DNA from: Geosiphon pyriformis uo1
Lineage: Eukaryota; Fungi; Glomeromycota
Reading direction: 5' to 3'
Assembly: GCA_016748015.1 (NCBI GenBank)
Contig: JAAOMT010000336.1
Span: forward strand, 1 to 6,796
DNA length: 6,796 nucleotides
Under the pieces are notes generated by a model. It was not told the origin of the DNA, did no database searches, and worked only from the letters and a program-made list of their open reading frames with translations. Within the stretch, counting starts at the first letter, position 1. Each line of letters opens with the position of its first letter. Of the stretch, positions 1-6,796 are shown piece after piece. The position numbers and the translations under genes are program-made.

Positions 1-1138
1 GTTTAGATTTGGTAGATCTCAGTAGCAAGTTACTCAGTGTCAGCGGTAGCAAGCCCCCCATTCACAAGTACTCCTCTATGCCCCCCTCGGATCCTGGTAT
101 ACGCTACTGAGCACTCCCGAATATCAACACCAATAAGTTACTGGTGGTTTTTAGGTATGGTACTTATTGGGTACGGTAATCATGATCAGGGTTATCGTTG
201 GGAGGCTATACCATCTCTCCCTGGGGCCTATACTTTGAGTACATAGTGTAAATCATAGGGACTCCTGGAGGGATAGCTGATAAAGGGAAAAACAGGTATA
301 GGGTAGGGATAGTTTAGTAGTAGTAAGTCTGGGTGGATGTATTGGATATATTGAGGGCACCAGTATAGGGAGATATTCATGACCAATTTGGGGATTGTTG
401 GGATTTGGTTAGTAGAGGTTAGGGATTTTTATTACTGGTATCAACAGGCTTACCAAAGCATACTCAAATAAGGTAGAGGGAGGGTTGGGTGTGGCCCCAA
501 AGTTCTAGTACTACTTTGCATACAGGGGCGGACCCTTTAGGTATCGATCCCAAAATACAATGGCTTTGAGCCTTAGATTCTTGGGGTCCTCTGGCAGTAT
601 GGTAAAGCACTTTTGGATATTTGATTGAGTCCTTGATGGATTTAAGTCAGTTTGGGTTGGATAGAGCCCTATACTGCTTAAGATAGTACCCTTATAGGAC
701 CCATATAAAGGGTCGTCCCCCAATTGTTAGTAGCTTACCTATCGGATCCGGAGTATGAGTATCTATCTAGGGATCTATTGGTTACCATCCTTTGGATTTA
801 GTGTACCGCCATACCCAACTAGGATCAAATACAGGACCGATTGAGAGTCTAATCAGTAACCTTTTGGCTTCAGGAGTTGTGGTTTGGTTTGTACTCATGA
901 GTTCCTTTAACTGTCTTTTTGGTAGGGTATACAAAGCGGTGCCATATGGTTGCAATCTATATACCTGTAGGTTTGACTGGGTTTACTACTTATATCCACC
1001 CTTAAGGGAGTATCATTTGGACTGGACACATGATCAAGTATTACCTTTGTAGCCTCACCAGAAATGGAGCTTTACTTACTGTAGGATCCTTTGTAACACT
1101 TGTGCTGCTTTTAAGCCTTAGCTCCCTACCCCCCCCCC
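1..1138 (+). repeat. Terminal direct repeat, copy 1 (1138 nt)
   Basis: gtttagatttggtagatc at 1 recurs at 5659. ORFs 37..246, 511..723 and 792..1052 recur with identical translations at +5658 (5695, 6169, 6450). No differences seen by eye. Confidence 0.98.
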
Positions 1139-1956
1139 CTGTTTATAAGGGAACTCTGGGTGGTTGTGGGGACTGGAGGCCCCCAAGTATAGGGATACAA
1201 ATTATCCTATCCGACTAATGACTCCCCTAAAATAGCATATTTGTGCGTGAGGACCACAATAGCTTGGACCCTGGTACACAGCAGACTTATGTATTTGGAG
1301 GGACTTTTGACTTGGCTATGGCTTTGAAGCTTTACCCCCCCCCCACCCCCCCTGTTTGTACTCCTGTAGAACCCCCCCCTTTCCCTGCCGGGGGATAACA
1401 GGATAACTCGTTTGATACCCATTGTTGTATCACACGTAGGTGTTCATACCCTAAGCTATGATTGGGATCTGGATACCCCCTAAGGGAGGTCCTGGGGATG
1501 GGGTAGTAATACGGGAAAGTTTTGTGGGATACGGGTTCATAGTGTTGTTTGAGTAGAGTTGATTTTGTTTACCTCCTCTACATAGGTGTGATCCAGGTCT
1601 ACCAAGTATCAGTGATCTTAGAAGTTGGGGTGGATAGATAAGGTTTGTTGGTAGCCCTTATTTGACTACTTGATTTTACTCCTGGGTTAATAAACAACGG
1701 ATGCAAACTGGATATGGAGCGGTATTTTGCTTAGGGCCTTGGCTTTGTTACCCAGCCCCTTTTAGTACCCGGTCCCTTTGTACATCAACATTATTTGTTT
1801 GTTTGTTTTTTTGTTGATCCATTACAGGGAATTTGGGGACTTGGTAGTTGGTCCCAAGTAAGGGTCCCAGGTGGTAGTATATGGTATTCCACTACAAATG
1901 GGATCAGTATATGGTATGGGTACTTTGAGTACTTATAGTGTTTGTTTATTGTCCAT
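253..1956 (-). CDS. Candidate coding segment starting MDNKQTL just downstream of the control region; requires stop reassignment (hypothetical)
   Basis: ATG at 1956-1954 lies beside the hairpin region. The same frame contains track ORFs 1207..1422 and 511..723. It reads HwYLVDLDHTYVEEVNKI across the TGA at 1611-1609. The other two minus frames also give plausible-looking peptides, so support is weak. Confidence 0.22.
735..755. repeat. Dispersed 21-nt block, copy A (TTACCTATCGGATCCGGAGTA; redundant copy at 6393-6413)
   Basis: 19/21 identical to 3387-3407; contains two CpGs in a CpG-poor sequence. Confidence 0.85.
1129..1379. repeat. Poly-C cluster (C11 1129-1139; C10-A-C7 1335-1352; C8 1372-1379) with duplicated CCCCCCCTGTTTRTA (1133-1147, 1346-1360)
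   Basis: Directly visible. These are G-runs on the minus strand with G-quadruplex potential. Confidence 0.8.
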
Positions 1957-1967
1957 ACCTTTATTGC

Positions 1968-2110
1968 GATTTACCCATTCTATCAAATACAATACACGGA
2001 CCAATACCTACCATACCCACCATCCCCCCCACCCGTTGGGGGGGGAGTTGGTACTCCCCCCCGGGGGGGGGTAAATAGGGGCCGTAGGATTTACCATTAC
2101 TCTACCCATT
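1968..2110. promoter_or_regulatory. Putative origin/control region: C7-G8-C7-G9 alternative hairpins flanked by ATTTACC-type repeats
   Basis: CCCCCCCA-cccgt-TGGGGGGG (2024-2044). GGGGGGGAGT-tggt-ACTCCCCCCC, 10-bp stem (2039-2062). C7/G9 at 2056-2071. GATTTACCCATT 1968-1979, GATTTACCATT 2088-2098, TACCCATT 2103-2110, inverted GGGTAAAT 2069-2076. Plus strand turns A/C-rich at 1981-2035. Function is inferred. Confidence 0.55.
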
Positions 2111-2343
2111 TTTATTACTACCTTACTCTTGACCTCCCGGTACGGATGGGTGCCATGGCCATAAAAACCACAGGTATAGTACTTAATACTGATGTACGAT
2201 TCTCATGTCAAATGCAAGGACATATTGAGTTACACGTTGGTTTTTGCTGGTGCCATGAGGATACCCTGTTTTATTCTGGGTCGCGAGGCTGCGTTGGGCT
2301 TGGCTGGGGGGAGGTATGAAATTGGTCCTTTGGTGGATGGTTA

Positions 2344-3924
2344 TCAGCAGTAATAGCTAGGGGAGTACTATGACTTATTGATTAGATGGATATGGGATCC
2401 ATGAGGGGGAGGTACTCTCAAGGCAGCATAGGAGCGCAGGGCCACAGGTCTATTTTAGGTCATATATGTGGGTGATGGTATTGGTAGGATCGCTGTAAAT
2501 CTGGTACCTGATAACAAAGTCCCTTTTGTTGGGATTTCTCTACACCAACTACAATTGGTATGGATGTCGTGCAGAGGAGTAGAAAATACAACTCCATATA
2601 TATAGAACTGAATAAGCAATGGGTCTCATAGGGCTTCTTCTGGATTATGGACGCTGTCTAAGGTGGTATCAAATTAAGCCCTGTATGTATGTGGTAGCCT
2701 CATAATGAGCTCCATTTTGTTGTGGGGACCATCTATTAGCCTAAGGATAGGAATATGGAGTAAATCGGGATTGGCTGCCAAGGGCTCTCATAAGTCCCAT
2801 AGGGGTTTGGTGGATTTAGGTTTAGAGTAAGGGTTGGTATGGATCCCCATTACTTGTGGTGGATGTGATTTGTAGTGCTTGATAAAATCCTCATTGGTTA
2901 GTACTTTATTTTAGGTAGATAGATAGGGTATAGCTGCGGGCTATCAACTCTTTATACCTTTGACCCCTTTCTCGCGTAGGGAATAGAGTAGGGATTCGAC
3001 CTCCTGTAGTCATGAGTATATTAGTAAGCTTTTAGTAGGGATTCTTCCCCCCCCCCACCCCTGTGGTGGATTGGACAGTGGTACCTTATACCGGTCCTCA
3101 TCATATTGGTACTTTGTGGGGATCGTGGATAAAATGTGGCTGTGAGAGCAGAACCGAGGTCCTTGTACCCATATATGCCTGAGTAGGATCCTACATAGTT
3201 GGTACATATCTGGGGTATTGGGCTTTGAACACAGTCCCTTTATCCAATACCAGTGCTAGTGATAGGGACCCCTACTTGATTGTGAGGTTCGGTTGGGGTT
3301 GCAACCATTGGTTGTGTGGGTCCTGGTATAGGATAGTAGACAATGGCCCCATGACCAAGTCTACCAAGGCCTTGCTTTAAGTAGTTTTACCTATCGGACC
3401 CGGACTACCATTAGATCCCTGTAGGTACCGATAGTAATCCTATTATTAGCCTTTGAGATACTGAGGCTATAGGTACCTGGTGGATACAGTGTTAACTTCA
3501 TAGTCTTAGTAGTTGGTACCTGTCGGGATAGTACATTCGTCTAGAGTCTAGTACCCCTACTGACAAGTCCCACAAGGCTACTACGAATCCCTCTAATGGG
3601 TTATTTGGGTACCATTAGTGTAATTTTGGGACGATTCATGGCCTAGGATATCTGTTTTTTCCAATTGCGGACTTTTGGCTTTGTCCTTGGTGGATTTTAG
3701 GGTATTTGGTTGTTTTTTGTCTTACTGTGGCCTGGCTGGGTTTTTGTAGGGAGATCCCGTAGTTGCTTATTACTTTGGGGAAGGTCGATTTTTAGCTCCC
3801 ATATTGTACGTTAGCCCTTTCCGATCCCCGGACATTTAGGAGCCTGGTAAATAGAGATAGTTAGTTTTTGTTTAGGCCCCTTTTAGGAGTGAATTGGTAG
3901 TGCATATGCAATTTGTTAGTTGGA
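2344..3924 (-). CDS. Candidate coding segment readable only with reassigned stop codons (hypothetical protein; boundaries uncertain)
   Basis: Same frame as track ORF 3010..3207. TGA-free for 304 codons (3924-3013). Reading on with TGA=w gives LIYSwLQEVESLLYSLREKGVKGIKSw, VLTNEDFIKHYK, LWDLwEPLAANPDLLHIPILRLIDG and EEALwDPLLIQFYIYG. My manual count of GAN (Asp/Glu) codons over 3060-2521 is about 17 in this frame versus about 8 and 4 in the other two. No homology established. Confidence 0.3.
3047..3064. repeat. C10-A-C4-TGT tract, same layout as 1335-1355
   Basis: Directly visible. Confidence 0.75.
3387..3407. repeat. Dispersed 21-nt block, copy B (TTACCTATCGGACCCGGACTA)
   Basis: 19/21 identical to 735-755; offset 2652 nt, a multiple of 3. 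Confidence 0.85.
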
Positions 3925-3982
3925 TCAATGAGGACCATTATAAGTCCTTATAGACCCAATCTGGTTTATACACAAACTGACC

Positions 3983-4022
3983 ACCCCCCCCCCCGCGACC
4001 AGGTCCCTAAGGGAGGGGGGGT
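3983..4022. other. GC-rich stem-loop: A-C11 pairing with GGGA-G7-T, 16-nt loop
   Basis: 3983-3990 pair with 4015-4022, then a C/A mismatch, then 3992-3994 pair with 4011-4013. Sits at the left edge of the weak-skew segment. Confidence 0.5.
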
Positions 4023-5658
4023 AACAGCGATACTCAATGTTATTGGGTATGGAGCCAGAAGAGGCCAACACTAGGTAATCCTCATGTATTTTGGGTAATC
4101 ATCAAGGCCCTATCACATATGCTTTGGGTTTGTGTAGTCAATTTGATCCTGACTTACCCCCCTATTACCCTCCCTCGATTCCCCATAGCTGAGTCCCACA
4201 TAGCTGGGACCCTTTGGTGACGATAGATTTTGGTACCTAGTGATGATGATGATTGGTTACTTTACCCTGCCACATACAGATCCTACAGTTACTACCTCAT
4301 ACATATCCAAGTCCATGCACCAATTAAACTCCTGTTACAGGTGGGGACTCGATTGGACCTTGTACAGTACTTTATGGCAAAGGTAGTCAGGATGGCCCTC
4401 AACACCTGAGGATACGCTTTTGGCTACCACACATTACTGTCACATATAGCCATAGCTTAAACCAAATGGGGTATCATGGCCCTTTGTACCAGTACTTATC
4501 ATGAACAGGTGGTATTCGGGTATTGACATTTGAGGGGGAATAGCAAAGTCAACACAACTCCCATAGCCCCTGTCCCCCGTTGGGTATCACGGATAAGCGC
4601 CCTATTCCTGATATATTTACAGCTTCAAATCACAAGTCGCGTAGTTGGTGTTATAGAGGAGTTGTGTAGGGTACCATACAGAGGCTGGTAATCAAGATCT
4701 CCCATGTACAATAAAGAGTATCAAAGGGATATGGATCTAATGGGGGATCCTATCTGAGGTAAGAGATAGTCTTCCTACAAACTCCTTTTGTTGGGTACTC
4801 ATAGGGGGTTCTTGAGTACTAGTCTTCCTATTATACAGTCTGATGTGCATATACTCCTATCCCTCCGCTATGGGCCTTTGGTATGGAGTGGGATTGGAAG
4901 TGCCATGAGGAGGGCTCTGTACAAACCAGGTCTCGTCCGATTGGGATTGTGGAGCGCTGGCCTTAGATTCTTAGAACCCCACTAATAGGATCCACTAGGG
5001 GACGGATAGGACTTTGAATGGGTACTTTGGTGTGGAATTTTGATAGTTGGACAGTATATGATTGTGGATTACAAGACCGTACCATTTTCTGGATAGGTTA
5101 CTATAACTGGTATTGGTAAGGAGCTTGGGGTCTGGGGGTTTATGGACGGACCAATGGGTAGTATTTGTGACCAGTTGTAGTAATGGGATTGGGTATGGAC
5201 TTTTGTCATAACTCTTGCTATACACTGTAAACTTTCTTATAGGATCAACAATTAGTTGGCAGATGGCCCAAGTCAGATACCTTTACTACATTGCCCATGG
5301 ATGGTAGATTGCTGGATTTTCTGGATTCAGGACCCCTTAAGTGCCCCCACAGTAATGGTTGGATTGTGGAGGGTACATTTGACCCATATGGTTGGTTTAT
5401 TTGCAGCCTCATTAACAAAGCCAGTTTGTTTGTATGGTATTAATTGGGGGGATAGTCGATTCCTAGATAGTATACCTAGATGTAGTTAGTCTATCGTGTG
5501 GTAAGTATTACAGTAGGATTTGGATATTGTACTGGGCGTATAACAGGATAGTGCTTGATTTGTTGGGTTTATGGAGAGCTTATTGGGTAGAGTAATTGGC
5601 CCAGAAGGCTAGATCCCCCTGAGCAAGAATCTTACAGGATTAACAGGGCTTTCTTACT

Positions 5659-6796
5659 GTTTAGATTTGGTAGATCTCAGTAGCAAGTTACTCAGTGTCA
5701 GCGGTAGCAAGCCCCCCATTCACAAGTACTCCTCTATGCCCCCCTCGGATCCTGGTATACGCTACTGAGCACTCCCGAATATCAACACCAATAAGTTACT
5801 GGTGGTTTTTAGGTATGGTACTTATTGGGTACGGTAATCATGATCAGGGTTATCGTTGGGAGGCTATACCATCTCTCCCTGGGGCCTATACTTTGAGTAC
5901 ATAGTGTAAATCATAGGGACTCCTGGAGGGATAGCTGATAAAGGGAAAAACAGGTATAGGGTAGGGATAGTTTAGTAGTAGTAAGTCTGGGTGGATGTAT
6001 TGGATATATTGAGGGCACCAGTATAGGGAGATATTCATGACCAATTTGGGGATTGTTGGGATTTGGTTAGTAGAGGTTAGGGATTTTTATTACTGGTATC
6101 AACAGGCTTACCAAAGCATACTCAAATAAGGTAGAGGGAGGGTTGGGTGTGGCCCCAAAGTTCTAGTACTACTTTGCATACAGGGGCGGACCCTTTAGGT
6201 ATCGATCCCAAAATACAATGGCTTTGAGCCTTAGATTCTTGGGGTCCTCTGGCAGTATGGTAAAGCACTTTTGGATATTTGATTGAGTCCTTGATGGATT
6301 TAAGTCAGTTTGGGTTGGATAGAGCCCTATACTGCTTAAGATAGTACCCTTATAGGACCCATATAAAGGGTCGTCCCCCAATTGTTAGTAGCTTACCTAT
6401 CGGATCCGGAGTATGAGTATCTATCTAGGGATCTATTGGTTACCATCCTTTGGATTTAGTGTACCGCCATACCCAACTAGGATCAAATACAGGACCGATT
6501 GAGAGTCTAATCAGTAACCTTTTGGCTTCAGGAGTTGTGGTTTGGTTTGTACTCATGAGTTCCTTTAACTGTCTTTTTGGTAGGGTATACAAAGCGGTGC
6601 CATATGGTTGCAATCTATATACCTGTAGGTTTGACTGGGTTTACTACTTATATCCACCCTTAAGGGAGTATCATTTGGACTGGACACATGATCAAGTATT
6701 ACCTTTGTAGCCTCACCAGAAATGGAGCTTTACTTACTGTAGGATCCTTTGTAACACTTGTGCTGCTTTTAAGCCTTAGCTCCCTACCCCCCCCCC
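5659..6796 (+). repeat. Terminal direct repeat, copy 2; the window ends inside the C-run equivalent to 1129-1139
   Basis: Matches 1-1138 and stops after 10 of the 11 C's of the homopolymer, as expected for an assembly break. Confidence 0.98.

What the first reader, a model, noticed from the sequence alone, without database searches (positions are those of the whole stretch)
1..6796. Apparently complete 5658-nt circular element with no standard-code gene and no hallmark protein
Seen: 1138-nt terminal redundancy, longest standard ORF 125 aa, strong strand skew and an origin-like hairpin region. Known: replicons of this size (CRESS-DNA viruses, microviruses, ambiviruses, small plasmids) are gene-dense and carry recognisable Rep, capsid or RdRp ORFs. 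Inference: this is either an unclassified element using a non-standard code or RNA editing, or a non-coding minicircle dependent on host or helper functions.
Basis: partly seen in the sequence, partly recalled or inferred. Interest (0 to 1): 0.85.

Follow-up and report, generated by a model that had tools for sequence, protein, structure and literature searches.

The report
Gene-less DNA minicircle with conserved core
This 5.7-kb loop of DNA, deposited as part of a fungal genome assembly, has no detectable gene but shares short exact sequence blocks with a second, larger molecule in the same sequencing run, so it is likely a host-copied mitochondrial minichromosome, possibly from a protist sequenced along with the fungus, rather than a virus with a hidden code.

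Summary
Observation confirmed. The 1138-nt overlap is exact (period 5658), and a Logan contig closes the same loop with no flanks. No reading of the stop codons gives an ORF longer than chance. Pfam, PHROGs, NCBIfam, PDB and Rfam find nothing significant, and the RNA fold is not rod-like. A hidden-code virus is therefore not supported.

Two new facts. (1) A second molecule of at least 8.2 kb in the same run shares a 48-nt core (3382-3429) and collinear 21-nt blocks; one flank is homologous but has 1-nt indels. (2) NCBI holds two singleton 'hypothetical proteins' stitched from this contig under the label Geosiphon pyriformis; they are likely gene-prediction artefacts.

Best reading (0.35): a gene-less or fragment-bearing mitochondrial minichromosome of a co-sequenced euglenozoan-type protist, resembling diplonemid 'unclassified' chromosomes. 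No gene module or class-wide constant region was found. Rivals: a cryptic mitochondrial plasmid of the fungus (0.25), another eukaryote's organelle (0.15), a satellite or episome (0.13), or a graph loop between two core copies (0.12). The scan has no look-alike of this DNA; it has logged diplonemid circles from other genomes.

The parts
1..5658 (.). one turn of the circular-mapping, non-coding unit (GC 44.6%; + strand G/T-rich)
5659..6796 (.). exact copy of 1-1138; inferred to be assembler overlap, ends inside a C run
   Evidence: 0 mismatches; no branch or loose end at its borders
3382..3429 (.). 48-nt core shared exactly with the second molecule; candidate origin or promoter (inferred); weak stem-loop
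   Evidence: separate 48-nt Logan record joined to the 5671-, 5560- and 2658-nt records; fold z -1.3 / -2.1
735..755 (+). second, 2-mismatch copy of part of the core, 2652 nt away (nearly opposite on the circle)
   Evidence: 0 of 300 simulated circles hold such a copy; not significant as an unconditioned repeat, 22 of 100 nulls reach it
4488..4538 (+). 21-nt block identical in the second molecule (4488-4508), followed by a homologous flank with 1-nt indels
   Evidence: flank alignment ties the best score, reached by 3 of 1132 overlapping windows
5570..5590 (+). 21-nt block shared with the second molecule (1 mismatch), collinear
   Evidence: offsets from core 2170 vs 2121
1327..1344 (+). 18-nt low-complexity block (ends in a C run) also in the second molecule; may be a recurring motif, not positional homology
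   Evidence: its flank is unrelated
1335..1352 (-). interrupted G tract, quadruplex-type pattern; the others are at 1124-1139, 2016-2034 and 4157-4184, all on the minus strand
   Evidence: 4 of 4 matches on the minus strand; long C/G runs exceed the Markov null, p<=0.003
2013..2075 (.).
   Evidence: no better than local shuffles
3915..4030 (.). two hairpins at the point where the keto skew flattens
   Evidence: RNA z about -4 on 12 shuffles, best of 76 windows; DNA z -1.5 on 200 shuffles; skew turn at 3923
3422..3646 (+). weakly 3-periodic, hydrophobic stretch next to the core with in-frame TAGs; unproven gene-fragment candidate
   Evidence: just above the 95% null, not significant (p 0.15-0.23); no significant homologue
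1942..2319 (+). longest standard ORF (125 aa), chance length
157..2628 (+). NCBI gene model KAG9298128.1 (473 aa), about 15 pieces hopping across all three frames; likely artefact
4246..5765 (+). NCBI gene model KAG9298129.1 (202 aa), about 5 pieces; likely artefact

Best explanation
The sequence is a circular-mapping 5.66-kb DNA with no detectable gene that shares a 48-nt core and collinear short blocks with a second molecule, and it is likely a mitochondrial minichromosome of a euglenozoan-type protist (diplonemid-like) sequenced along with the fungus whose name the assembly carries. Mechanism, all inferred: it encodes no replication protein and is copied by nucleus-encoded mitochondrial enzymes. 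The exactly conserved core is the cis-acting start site for replication or transcription. Copying is strand-asymmetric, which gives the one-way G/T skew. Interrupted G tracts on the minus strand may stop a phage-type RNA polymerase to leave a primer, as recalled for the vertebrate CSB II element. The rest drifts neutrally. Any information it carries would be a short gene module or guide RNA that only makes sense after trans-splicing or editing; it may also be an empty chromosome.
For: Shown: closed loop without flanks. No ORF above null under 7 of 7 stop sets. No Pfam family on 6 of 6 read-through frames, and best E 0.031 among 140 segments; PHROGs best 0.16; NCBIfam best 0.088 of 15; PDB best 0.45. 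No Rfam match at a gathering score. Second molecule of at least 8206 nt with exact blocks at offsets 1093 and 2121 against 1088 and 2170; an exact 18-mer is shared by only 3 of 200 simulated pairs. One flank is homologous with 1-nt indels. From papers: diplonemid chromosomes are 4-10 kb circles; the 'unclassified' ones are those that assembled completely, and two of them share only two short regions (PMC5658414). Empty chromosomes and cassettes covering 83-90% of a circle occur in Sulcionema (PMC7049700). Word usage is extreme (CG 0.30, GC 0.57, CC/GG 1.67, TA 1.26, GAA/GTA 0.21 against 0.63-3.5 in 23 of 23 other loci). Five Sulcionema mitochondrial primers score like the circle's own words: 0 of 2000 control sets reach them, and 0.1% of letter shuffles do.
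Against: No gene module was found, although diplonemid unclassified chromosomes carry modules and Pfam should see a conserved cox1 or cob piece. There is no shared region of >100 bp at >90% identity, the published definition of a constant region. Only one other molecule passes through the core. The Sulcionema match was picked by eye from about ten species' primer lists, rests on 119 nt of coding-region primers, and five D. ambulator primers do not fit. Diplonemids are described from sea and lakes and are rare in fresh water, while the label is a terrestrial fungus. Kinetoplastid CSB-3 is absent (best 2 mismatches, at chance; 18). The flank upstream of the core is not significantly similar in the relative. 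Nothing ties the circle to a mitochondrion directly.
Confidence: 0.35

Rival explanations
1. A cryptic, non-autonomous mitochondrial plasmid or minichromosome of the fungus itself, copied by the mitochondrial machinery or by a polymerase on a helper plasmid (perhaps the larger relative).
For: The contig is deposited under the fungal name. Glomeromycotan mtDNAs carry many plasmid-derived polymerase remnants, one putative free plasmid is reported in Gigaspora rosea, and one Rhizophagus isolate has two circular mitochondrial chromosomes (PMC3787672, PMC3630166, PMC4316621). Non-coding mitochondrial plasmids exist in myxozoans (PMC11034133).
Against: No polymerase, reverse transcriptase, tRNA or rRNA remnant. 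Rhizophagus mtDNA is about 36.5-37% GC and its printed primers look richer in AAA/GAA/TTC (judged by eye, not computed). No Geosiphon mtDNA was available to compare.
Confidence: 0.25
2. A non-coding organellar circle of some other co-sequenced eukaryote (soil animal, alga, amoeba), for example a control-region minicircle or an empty plastid-type minicircle.
For: G/T strand skew, low CpG and high CC/GG are recalled traits of animal mtDNA. Amphidinium has empty minicircles with a shared core and 45-46% GC (PMC1679814).
Against: Amphidinium primers do not fit the word usage; its circles are 2.3-2.7 kb. No convincing tRNA: none in standard mode, 2 low-stringency mitochondrial calls. No tandem arrays typical of control regions.
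Confidence: 0.15
3. A helper-dependent satellite of a DNA virus, or a nuclear episome of a kind not yet described.
For: Closed loop, one-way skew, hairpins, and a short region common to two molecules, as in multipartite viruses.
Against: No Rep, capsid or polymerase. The CRESS-type nonanucleotide (recalled) occurs at chance level: 3 matches, 2 distinct sites, 2.0 expected. No relative in 50,697 phage or 72,556 plasmid records (10, 11) or in 6 IMG/VR pattern scans (hits checked in 74 and 109). It is far larger than the non-coding satellites I recall.
Confidence: 0.13
4. Not a free circle: the 5.6-kb unit lies between two copies of the 48-nt core inside a longer molecule (2658-core-unit-core-5560) or in a tandem array, and the loop is a graph artefact.
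For: Logan's 31-mers cannot phase a 48-nt repeat. Depths 67, 146, 115 and 229 fit this layout as well as two separate molecules. The unit and the 5560-nt record are diverged paralogues.
Against: The deposited contig runs through the core from unit end to unit start and stands alone with a terminal overlap. That is what an assembler that resolves a 48-nt repeat gives for a circle; the assembler's settings are unknown to me. A tandem array would be expected to be deeper than its flanks, not shallower (depth is a weak guide).
Confidence: 0.12

Closest known systems
Diplonemid 'unclassified' and empty mitochondrial chromosomes (Diplonema sp. 2 U02/U03; Sulcionema specki) - PMC5658414, PMC7049700
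   Same: Circular, within 4-10 kb, almost or wholly non-coding, assembles whole, shares only short regions with a sister molecule; word usage like five Sulcionema primers.
   Different: No gene module found; shared blocks are 18-48 nt rather than 100-300 bp; no class-wide constant region; comes from an assembly labelled as a terrestrial fungus; no sequence similarity could be tested.
Kinetoplastid minicircles and guide-RNA-bearing molecules (trypanosomatids; Trypanoplasma borreli) - PMC9679448
   Same: Non-coding, strand-skewed, short conserved blocks; two core copies nearly opposite each other.
   Different: No CSB-3 dodecamer; no visible array of many classes; guide RNAs untestable without the partner maxicircle.
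Empty plastid minicircles of Amphidinium - PMC1679814
   Same: Gene-less circles with a short shared core; similar GC content.
   Different: About twice the size; only one partner shares the core; word usage does not fit; no plastid gene or rRNA piece.
Fungal and glomeromycotan mitochondrial plasmids; non-coding myxozoan mitochondrial plasmids - PMC3630166, PMC3787672, PMC11034133
   Same: Small extrachromosomal DNA found in total-DNA sequencing of the host.
   Different: The fungal ones encode a DNA polymerase or reverse transcriptase; the Myxobolus one is a 1.7-kb excerpt of the main mtDNA; this one has neither feature as far as tested.

Membership tests
Diplonemid mitochondrial chromosome | circular molecule of about 4-10 kb | tested here: met
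   5658/5659-nt closed loop in two assemblies; physical circle not shown
Diplonemid mitochondrial chromosome | constant region >100 bp at >90% identity shared by a class | tested here: not met
   longest shared stretch 48 nt; 'unclassified' chromosomes also lack it
Diplonemid mitochondrial chromosome | gene module of a respiratory-chain gene or rRNA | tested here: inconclusive
   none found; short or divergent modules fall below these searches and no diplonemid sequences were available as queries
Diplonemid mitochondrial chromosome | trans-spliced, edited transcripts | not testable with these tools
   needs RNA reads
Diplonemid mitochondrial chromosome | diplonemid host present in the sample | not testable with these tools
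   run contigs can only be laid on the window
Kinetoplastid minicircle | CSB-3 dodecamer (motif recalled) | tested here: not met
   best matches have 2 mismatches; 4 seen, 1.8 expected
Kinetoplastid minicircle | guide RNA genes complementary to edited mRNAs | not testable with these tools
   no partner maxicircle
CRESS-DNA virus / microvirus / small plasmid | Rep or capsid ORF | tested here: not met
CRESS-DNA virus / satellite | nonanucleotide in a stem-loop (motif recalled) | tested here: not met
   matches at chance level; no flanking stem by eye
Ambivirus / viroid-like circular RNA | rod-like fold, ribozymes, RdRp | tested here: not met
   79 hairpin loops, 66% paired, energy no lower than 2 of 2 shuffles; no ribozyme family
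Fungal mitochondrial plasmid | DNA polymerase or reverse transcriptase gene | tested here: not met
   the larger relative could not be read
LTR retroelement / non-autonomous derivative | terminal repeats bordered by host flanks | tested here: not met
   no branch or loose end at 5659 or 1138 in Logan contigs; contigs drop rare variants
Dinoflagellate empty minicircle | core shared by all gene minicircles of the plastid | tested here: not met
   only one other molecule passes through the core; primer word usage does not fit

The most novel reading that the evidence does not exclude
The circles belong to the fungus itself: a glomeromycotan fungus keeps a family of large, gene-less, independently copied DNA circles with their own mutational signature and a 48-nt conserved origin, a kind of element I found no report of in this group.
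Probability: 0.25. Interest if true: 0.78.

Novelty: new variant of a known kind. Interest (0 to 1): 0.5.

Why it matters
If the owner is a protist, the run holds a fragmented mitochondrial genome from a lineage or habitat not yet covered, and the shared 48-nt core is a testable origin; diplonemid origins have been inferred only from GC skew. If the owner is the fungus, it would be a new kind of gene-less replicon in the group that forms arbuscular mycorrhiza, with a defined cis element. Either way, two NCBI proteins (KAG9298128.1, KAG9298129.1) are likely artefacts and the contig is probably not fungal nuclear DNA.

Tried and rejected
Alternative codes: no stop set beats the null.

rRNA: a 12-nt match to the E. 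coli 23S peptidyl-transferase motif at 1391-1402 is below the null median; Rfam finds nothing there.

Gene candidates beside the core (nad4L-like and nad9-like by eye, from memory): no significant hit with TAG read as L, W or X, or on the opposite strand. Periodicity is not significant in the second test. The 93-codon frame 771-1049 finds only the contig's own gene model. The all-against-all protein search covered only frame +1, 2161-5760, and returned only the two self-derived proteins. The ESM Atlas gave no result.

Relatives: none among phages or plasmids. The JGI scan gave 16 of 16 hits without similarity beyond the pattern. Six IMG/VR scans gave 8 hits, all in coding contigs with no extended similarity (checked in 74 and 109). 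Two GTDB scans gave 0. The scan index has no look-alike.

Rod-like RNA rejected. Palindromes are not enriched.

Sequencing runs: no RNA holder listed. Runs X2 and X3 of the same sample laid 0 contigs, which the tool says is no proof of absence. No whole genome is held.

Print: six window motifs occur in 0 papers; a search for gene-less circular contigs gave 0; no title among the 11 listed for Geosiphon plus mitochondrial genome describes its mtDNA. The Amphidinium sequence supplements could not be read, and diplonemid chromosome sequences are not in the supplements seen.
Full report
1. Observation. The window is a 5658-nt unit plus an exact copy of its first 1138 nt. One public run, X1, holds 99% of its sampled words. 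A 5671-nt Logan contig of that run crosses the junction and both borders of the repeat, returns on itself, and shows no loose end there. X1 may be the source of the window, so this is a second assembly, not a second sample. The longest standard ORF is 125 aa. Strand skew is real: GC +0.126, AT -0.127. The G/C cruciform at 2013-2075 exists but folds no better than local shuffles, although long C/G runs are enriched over the whole circle.

2. No detectable coding. Under all 7 combinations of stop codons the longest open frame lies within a second-order Markov null (p 0.32-0.98), and stops are spread evenly over the three plus-strand frames. The six read-through frames give no Pfam family, one PHROG at E 0.16 and PDB hits no better than E 0.45. 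Of 140 table-4 segments of 30 or more codons, none passes a Pfam cut-off; the best E is 0.031. Rfam finds nothing at a gathering score, standard ARAGORN finds no tRNA, and E. coli rRNA matches stay at or below the null median. Folded as a circular RNA, the plus strand is highly branched and no more stable than 2 of 2 shuffles. A hidden-code virus, an ambivirus and a viroid-like rod are therefore not supported. One stretch beside the core (3422-3646) is weakly 3-periodic: just significant, not. It found no significant homologue in six searches.

3. A relative in the same run. The Logan graph breaks at a 48-nt record, window 3382-3429, depth 229. Into it lead the circle's own contig (depth 67) and a 2658-nt record (146); out of it lead the circle's contig and a 5560-nt record (115). 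A second molecule of at least 8206 nt therefore runs through the same core. The 5560-nt record also matches 4488-4508 and 5570-5590 at nearly the same distances from the core (1093 and 2121 against 1088 and 2170), plus a low-complexity 18-mer. Simulated pairs share even an exact 18-mer only 3 times in 200. The 30 letters after 4508 align to the window's own flank at the top score of the scan, with 1-nt indels; the other two loose ends are not significantly similar. The two molecules are thus diverged homologues with a few exactly kept blocks, the pattern expected of cis-acting sites in drifting DNA. Part of the core recurs with 2 mismatches at 735-755, nearly opposite on the circle. Conditioned on the core this is beyond chance (0 of 300); as an unconditioned repeat it is not.

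4. Label of the contig. A search of 1.84 billion representative proteins with frame +1 (2161-5760) returned only two proteins. Both are singletons on one 6796-nt contig, named by NCBI as hypothetical proteins of Geosiphon pyriformis. They are stitched from about 15 and 5 pieces that hop between frames, many starting right after a stop codon, so they are likely ab initio artefacts. Geosiphon is a glomeromycotan fungus that lives with Nostoc (PMC6899921, passages). That its material is not axenic, and that its nuclear DNA is AT-rich, is recalled, not checked.

5. Word usage. Both strands together: CG 0.30, GC 0.57, TC/GA 0.79, CC/GG 1.67, TA 1.26, and GAA/GTA 0.21 against 0.63-3.5 in the 23 other loci held then. 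Five Sulcionema mitochondrial primers score like the circle's own sequence under its Markov model (0 of 2000 control sets; 0.1% of shuffles); five Amphidinium plastid and five D. ambulator primers do not. This is a lead only: I chose Sulcionema by eye after seeing the lists, the sample is 119 nt, and the controls are mostly prokaryotic. In the 40 diplonemid-directed primers of PMC5658414, GAA+TTC number 6 against 40 for GTA+TAC (totals, adapters removed by hand), but GpC is common there, unlike in the circle.

6. Mechanism. Shown: closed loop in two assemblies, no detectable gene, a conserved core and blocks, one-way skew, and four quadruplex-type G tracts all on the minus strand. Inferred: the molecule is a free circle; it depends on host enzymes; the core is its origin or promoter; copying is strand-asymmetric; it sits in a mitochondrion; and its owner is a euglenozoan-type protist (0.35). 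The closest published case is the diplonemid 'unclassified' chromosome: 4-10 kb circles of unique structure, two of which share only two short regions (PMC5658414), with empty chromosomes and very long cassettes in Sulcionema (PMC7049700). Against membership: no module, no constant region by the published definition, only one partner, and diplonemids are known from sea and lakes. It may work like such a chromosome without being shown to be one. Rivals are the fungus's own cryptic mitochondrial plasmid (0.25), another eukaryote's organelle (0.15), a viral satellite or episome (0.13), and a segment between two core copies in a longer molecule (0.12). The last fits the depths equally well, and only the deposited contig's path through the core argues against it.

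7. Novelty. No relative was found in the phage, plasmid, IMG/VR, JGI or GTDB collections by the searches listed under Tried and rejected, nor in the scan's index. Six window motifs occur in no paper. Gene-less circles with short shared cores are a known kind; this one matches none of the described families, so I rate it a new variant, interest 0.5.

8. Papers seen. PMC5658414: parts 1-2 of 7, passages, supplement part 4 and term counts. PMC7049700: passages, part 5 of 8, supplement parts 1-2 and two term searches. Passages only: PMC3035467, PMC1679814 (its sequence supplements could not be read and bear on the Amphidinium comparison), PMC11034133, PMC8061765, PMC9679448, PMC3787672, PMC3630166, PMC4316621, PMC6899921 and bioRxiv 10.1101/2020.05.14.095992. 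All others: search listings only. Recalled, from no call: the CSB-3 and nonanucleotide motifs, the CSB II priming model, animal mtDNA dinucleotide traits and the nad4L/nad9 motifs.

Noticed in passing
window 157-2628 and 4246-5765: Two NCBI protein records (KAG9298128.1, KAG9298129.1) are frame-hopping gene models on non-coding DNA and probably should be withdrawn.
   Followed up: yes
window 3046: The Logan contig has one more C in the homopolymer than the window, so the unit is 5658 or 5659 nt.
   Followed up: partly
window 753-3411 compared with the 2658-nt record of run X1: The record upstream of the core in the second molecule is 2658 nt, almost the 2652-nt distance between the two core copies in the window. 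It may end at an exact second core-like repeat.
   Followed up: no
window 1107-1147 and 1321-1360: Two 78%-identical copies of a motif ending in a long C run; similar TTAC-plus-C-run sites occur on both strands (2063-2075, 4015-4024, 4153-4162).
   Followed up: partly
window 769-782 and 3407-3420: The second half of the core appears inverted (13 of 14 nt) just downstream of the direct copy at 735-755.
   Followed up: no
window 999-1010, 1478-1489, 4005-4016: A short near-palindromic CCC-TAAG-GG motif recurs three times, twice identical over 12 nt.
   Followed up: no
window 1391-1402: 12-nt identity to the peptidyl-transferase loop of E. coli 23S rRNA followed by a small hairpin; statistically at chance level.
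   Followed up: yes
window 3920-4785: An 860-nt stretch where the G/T skew vanishes, starting at a hairpin pair; could be a region of different origin or opposite transcription.
   Followed up: partly
whole circle: GAA/TTC occurs at half the frequency expected from dinucleotides while CAA/TTG is 1.5-fold high; the mutational cause is unexplained.
   Followed up: partly
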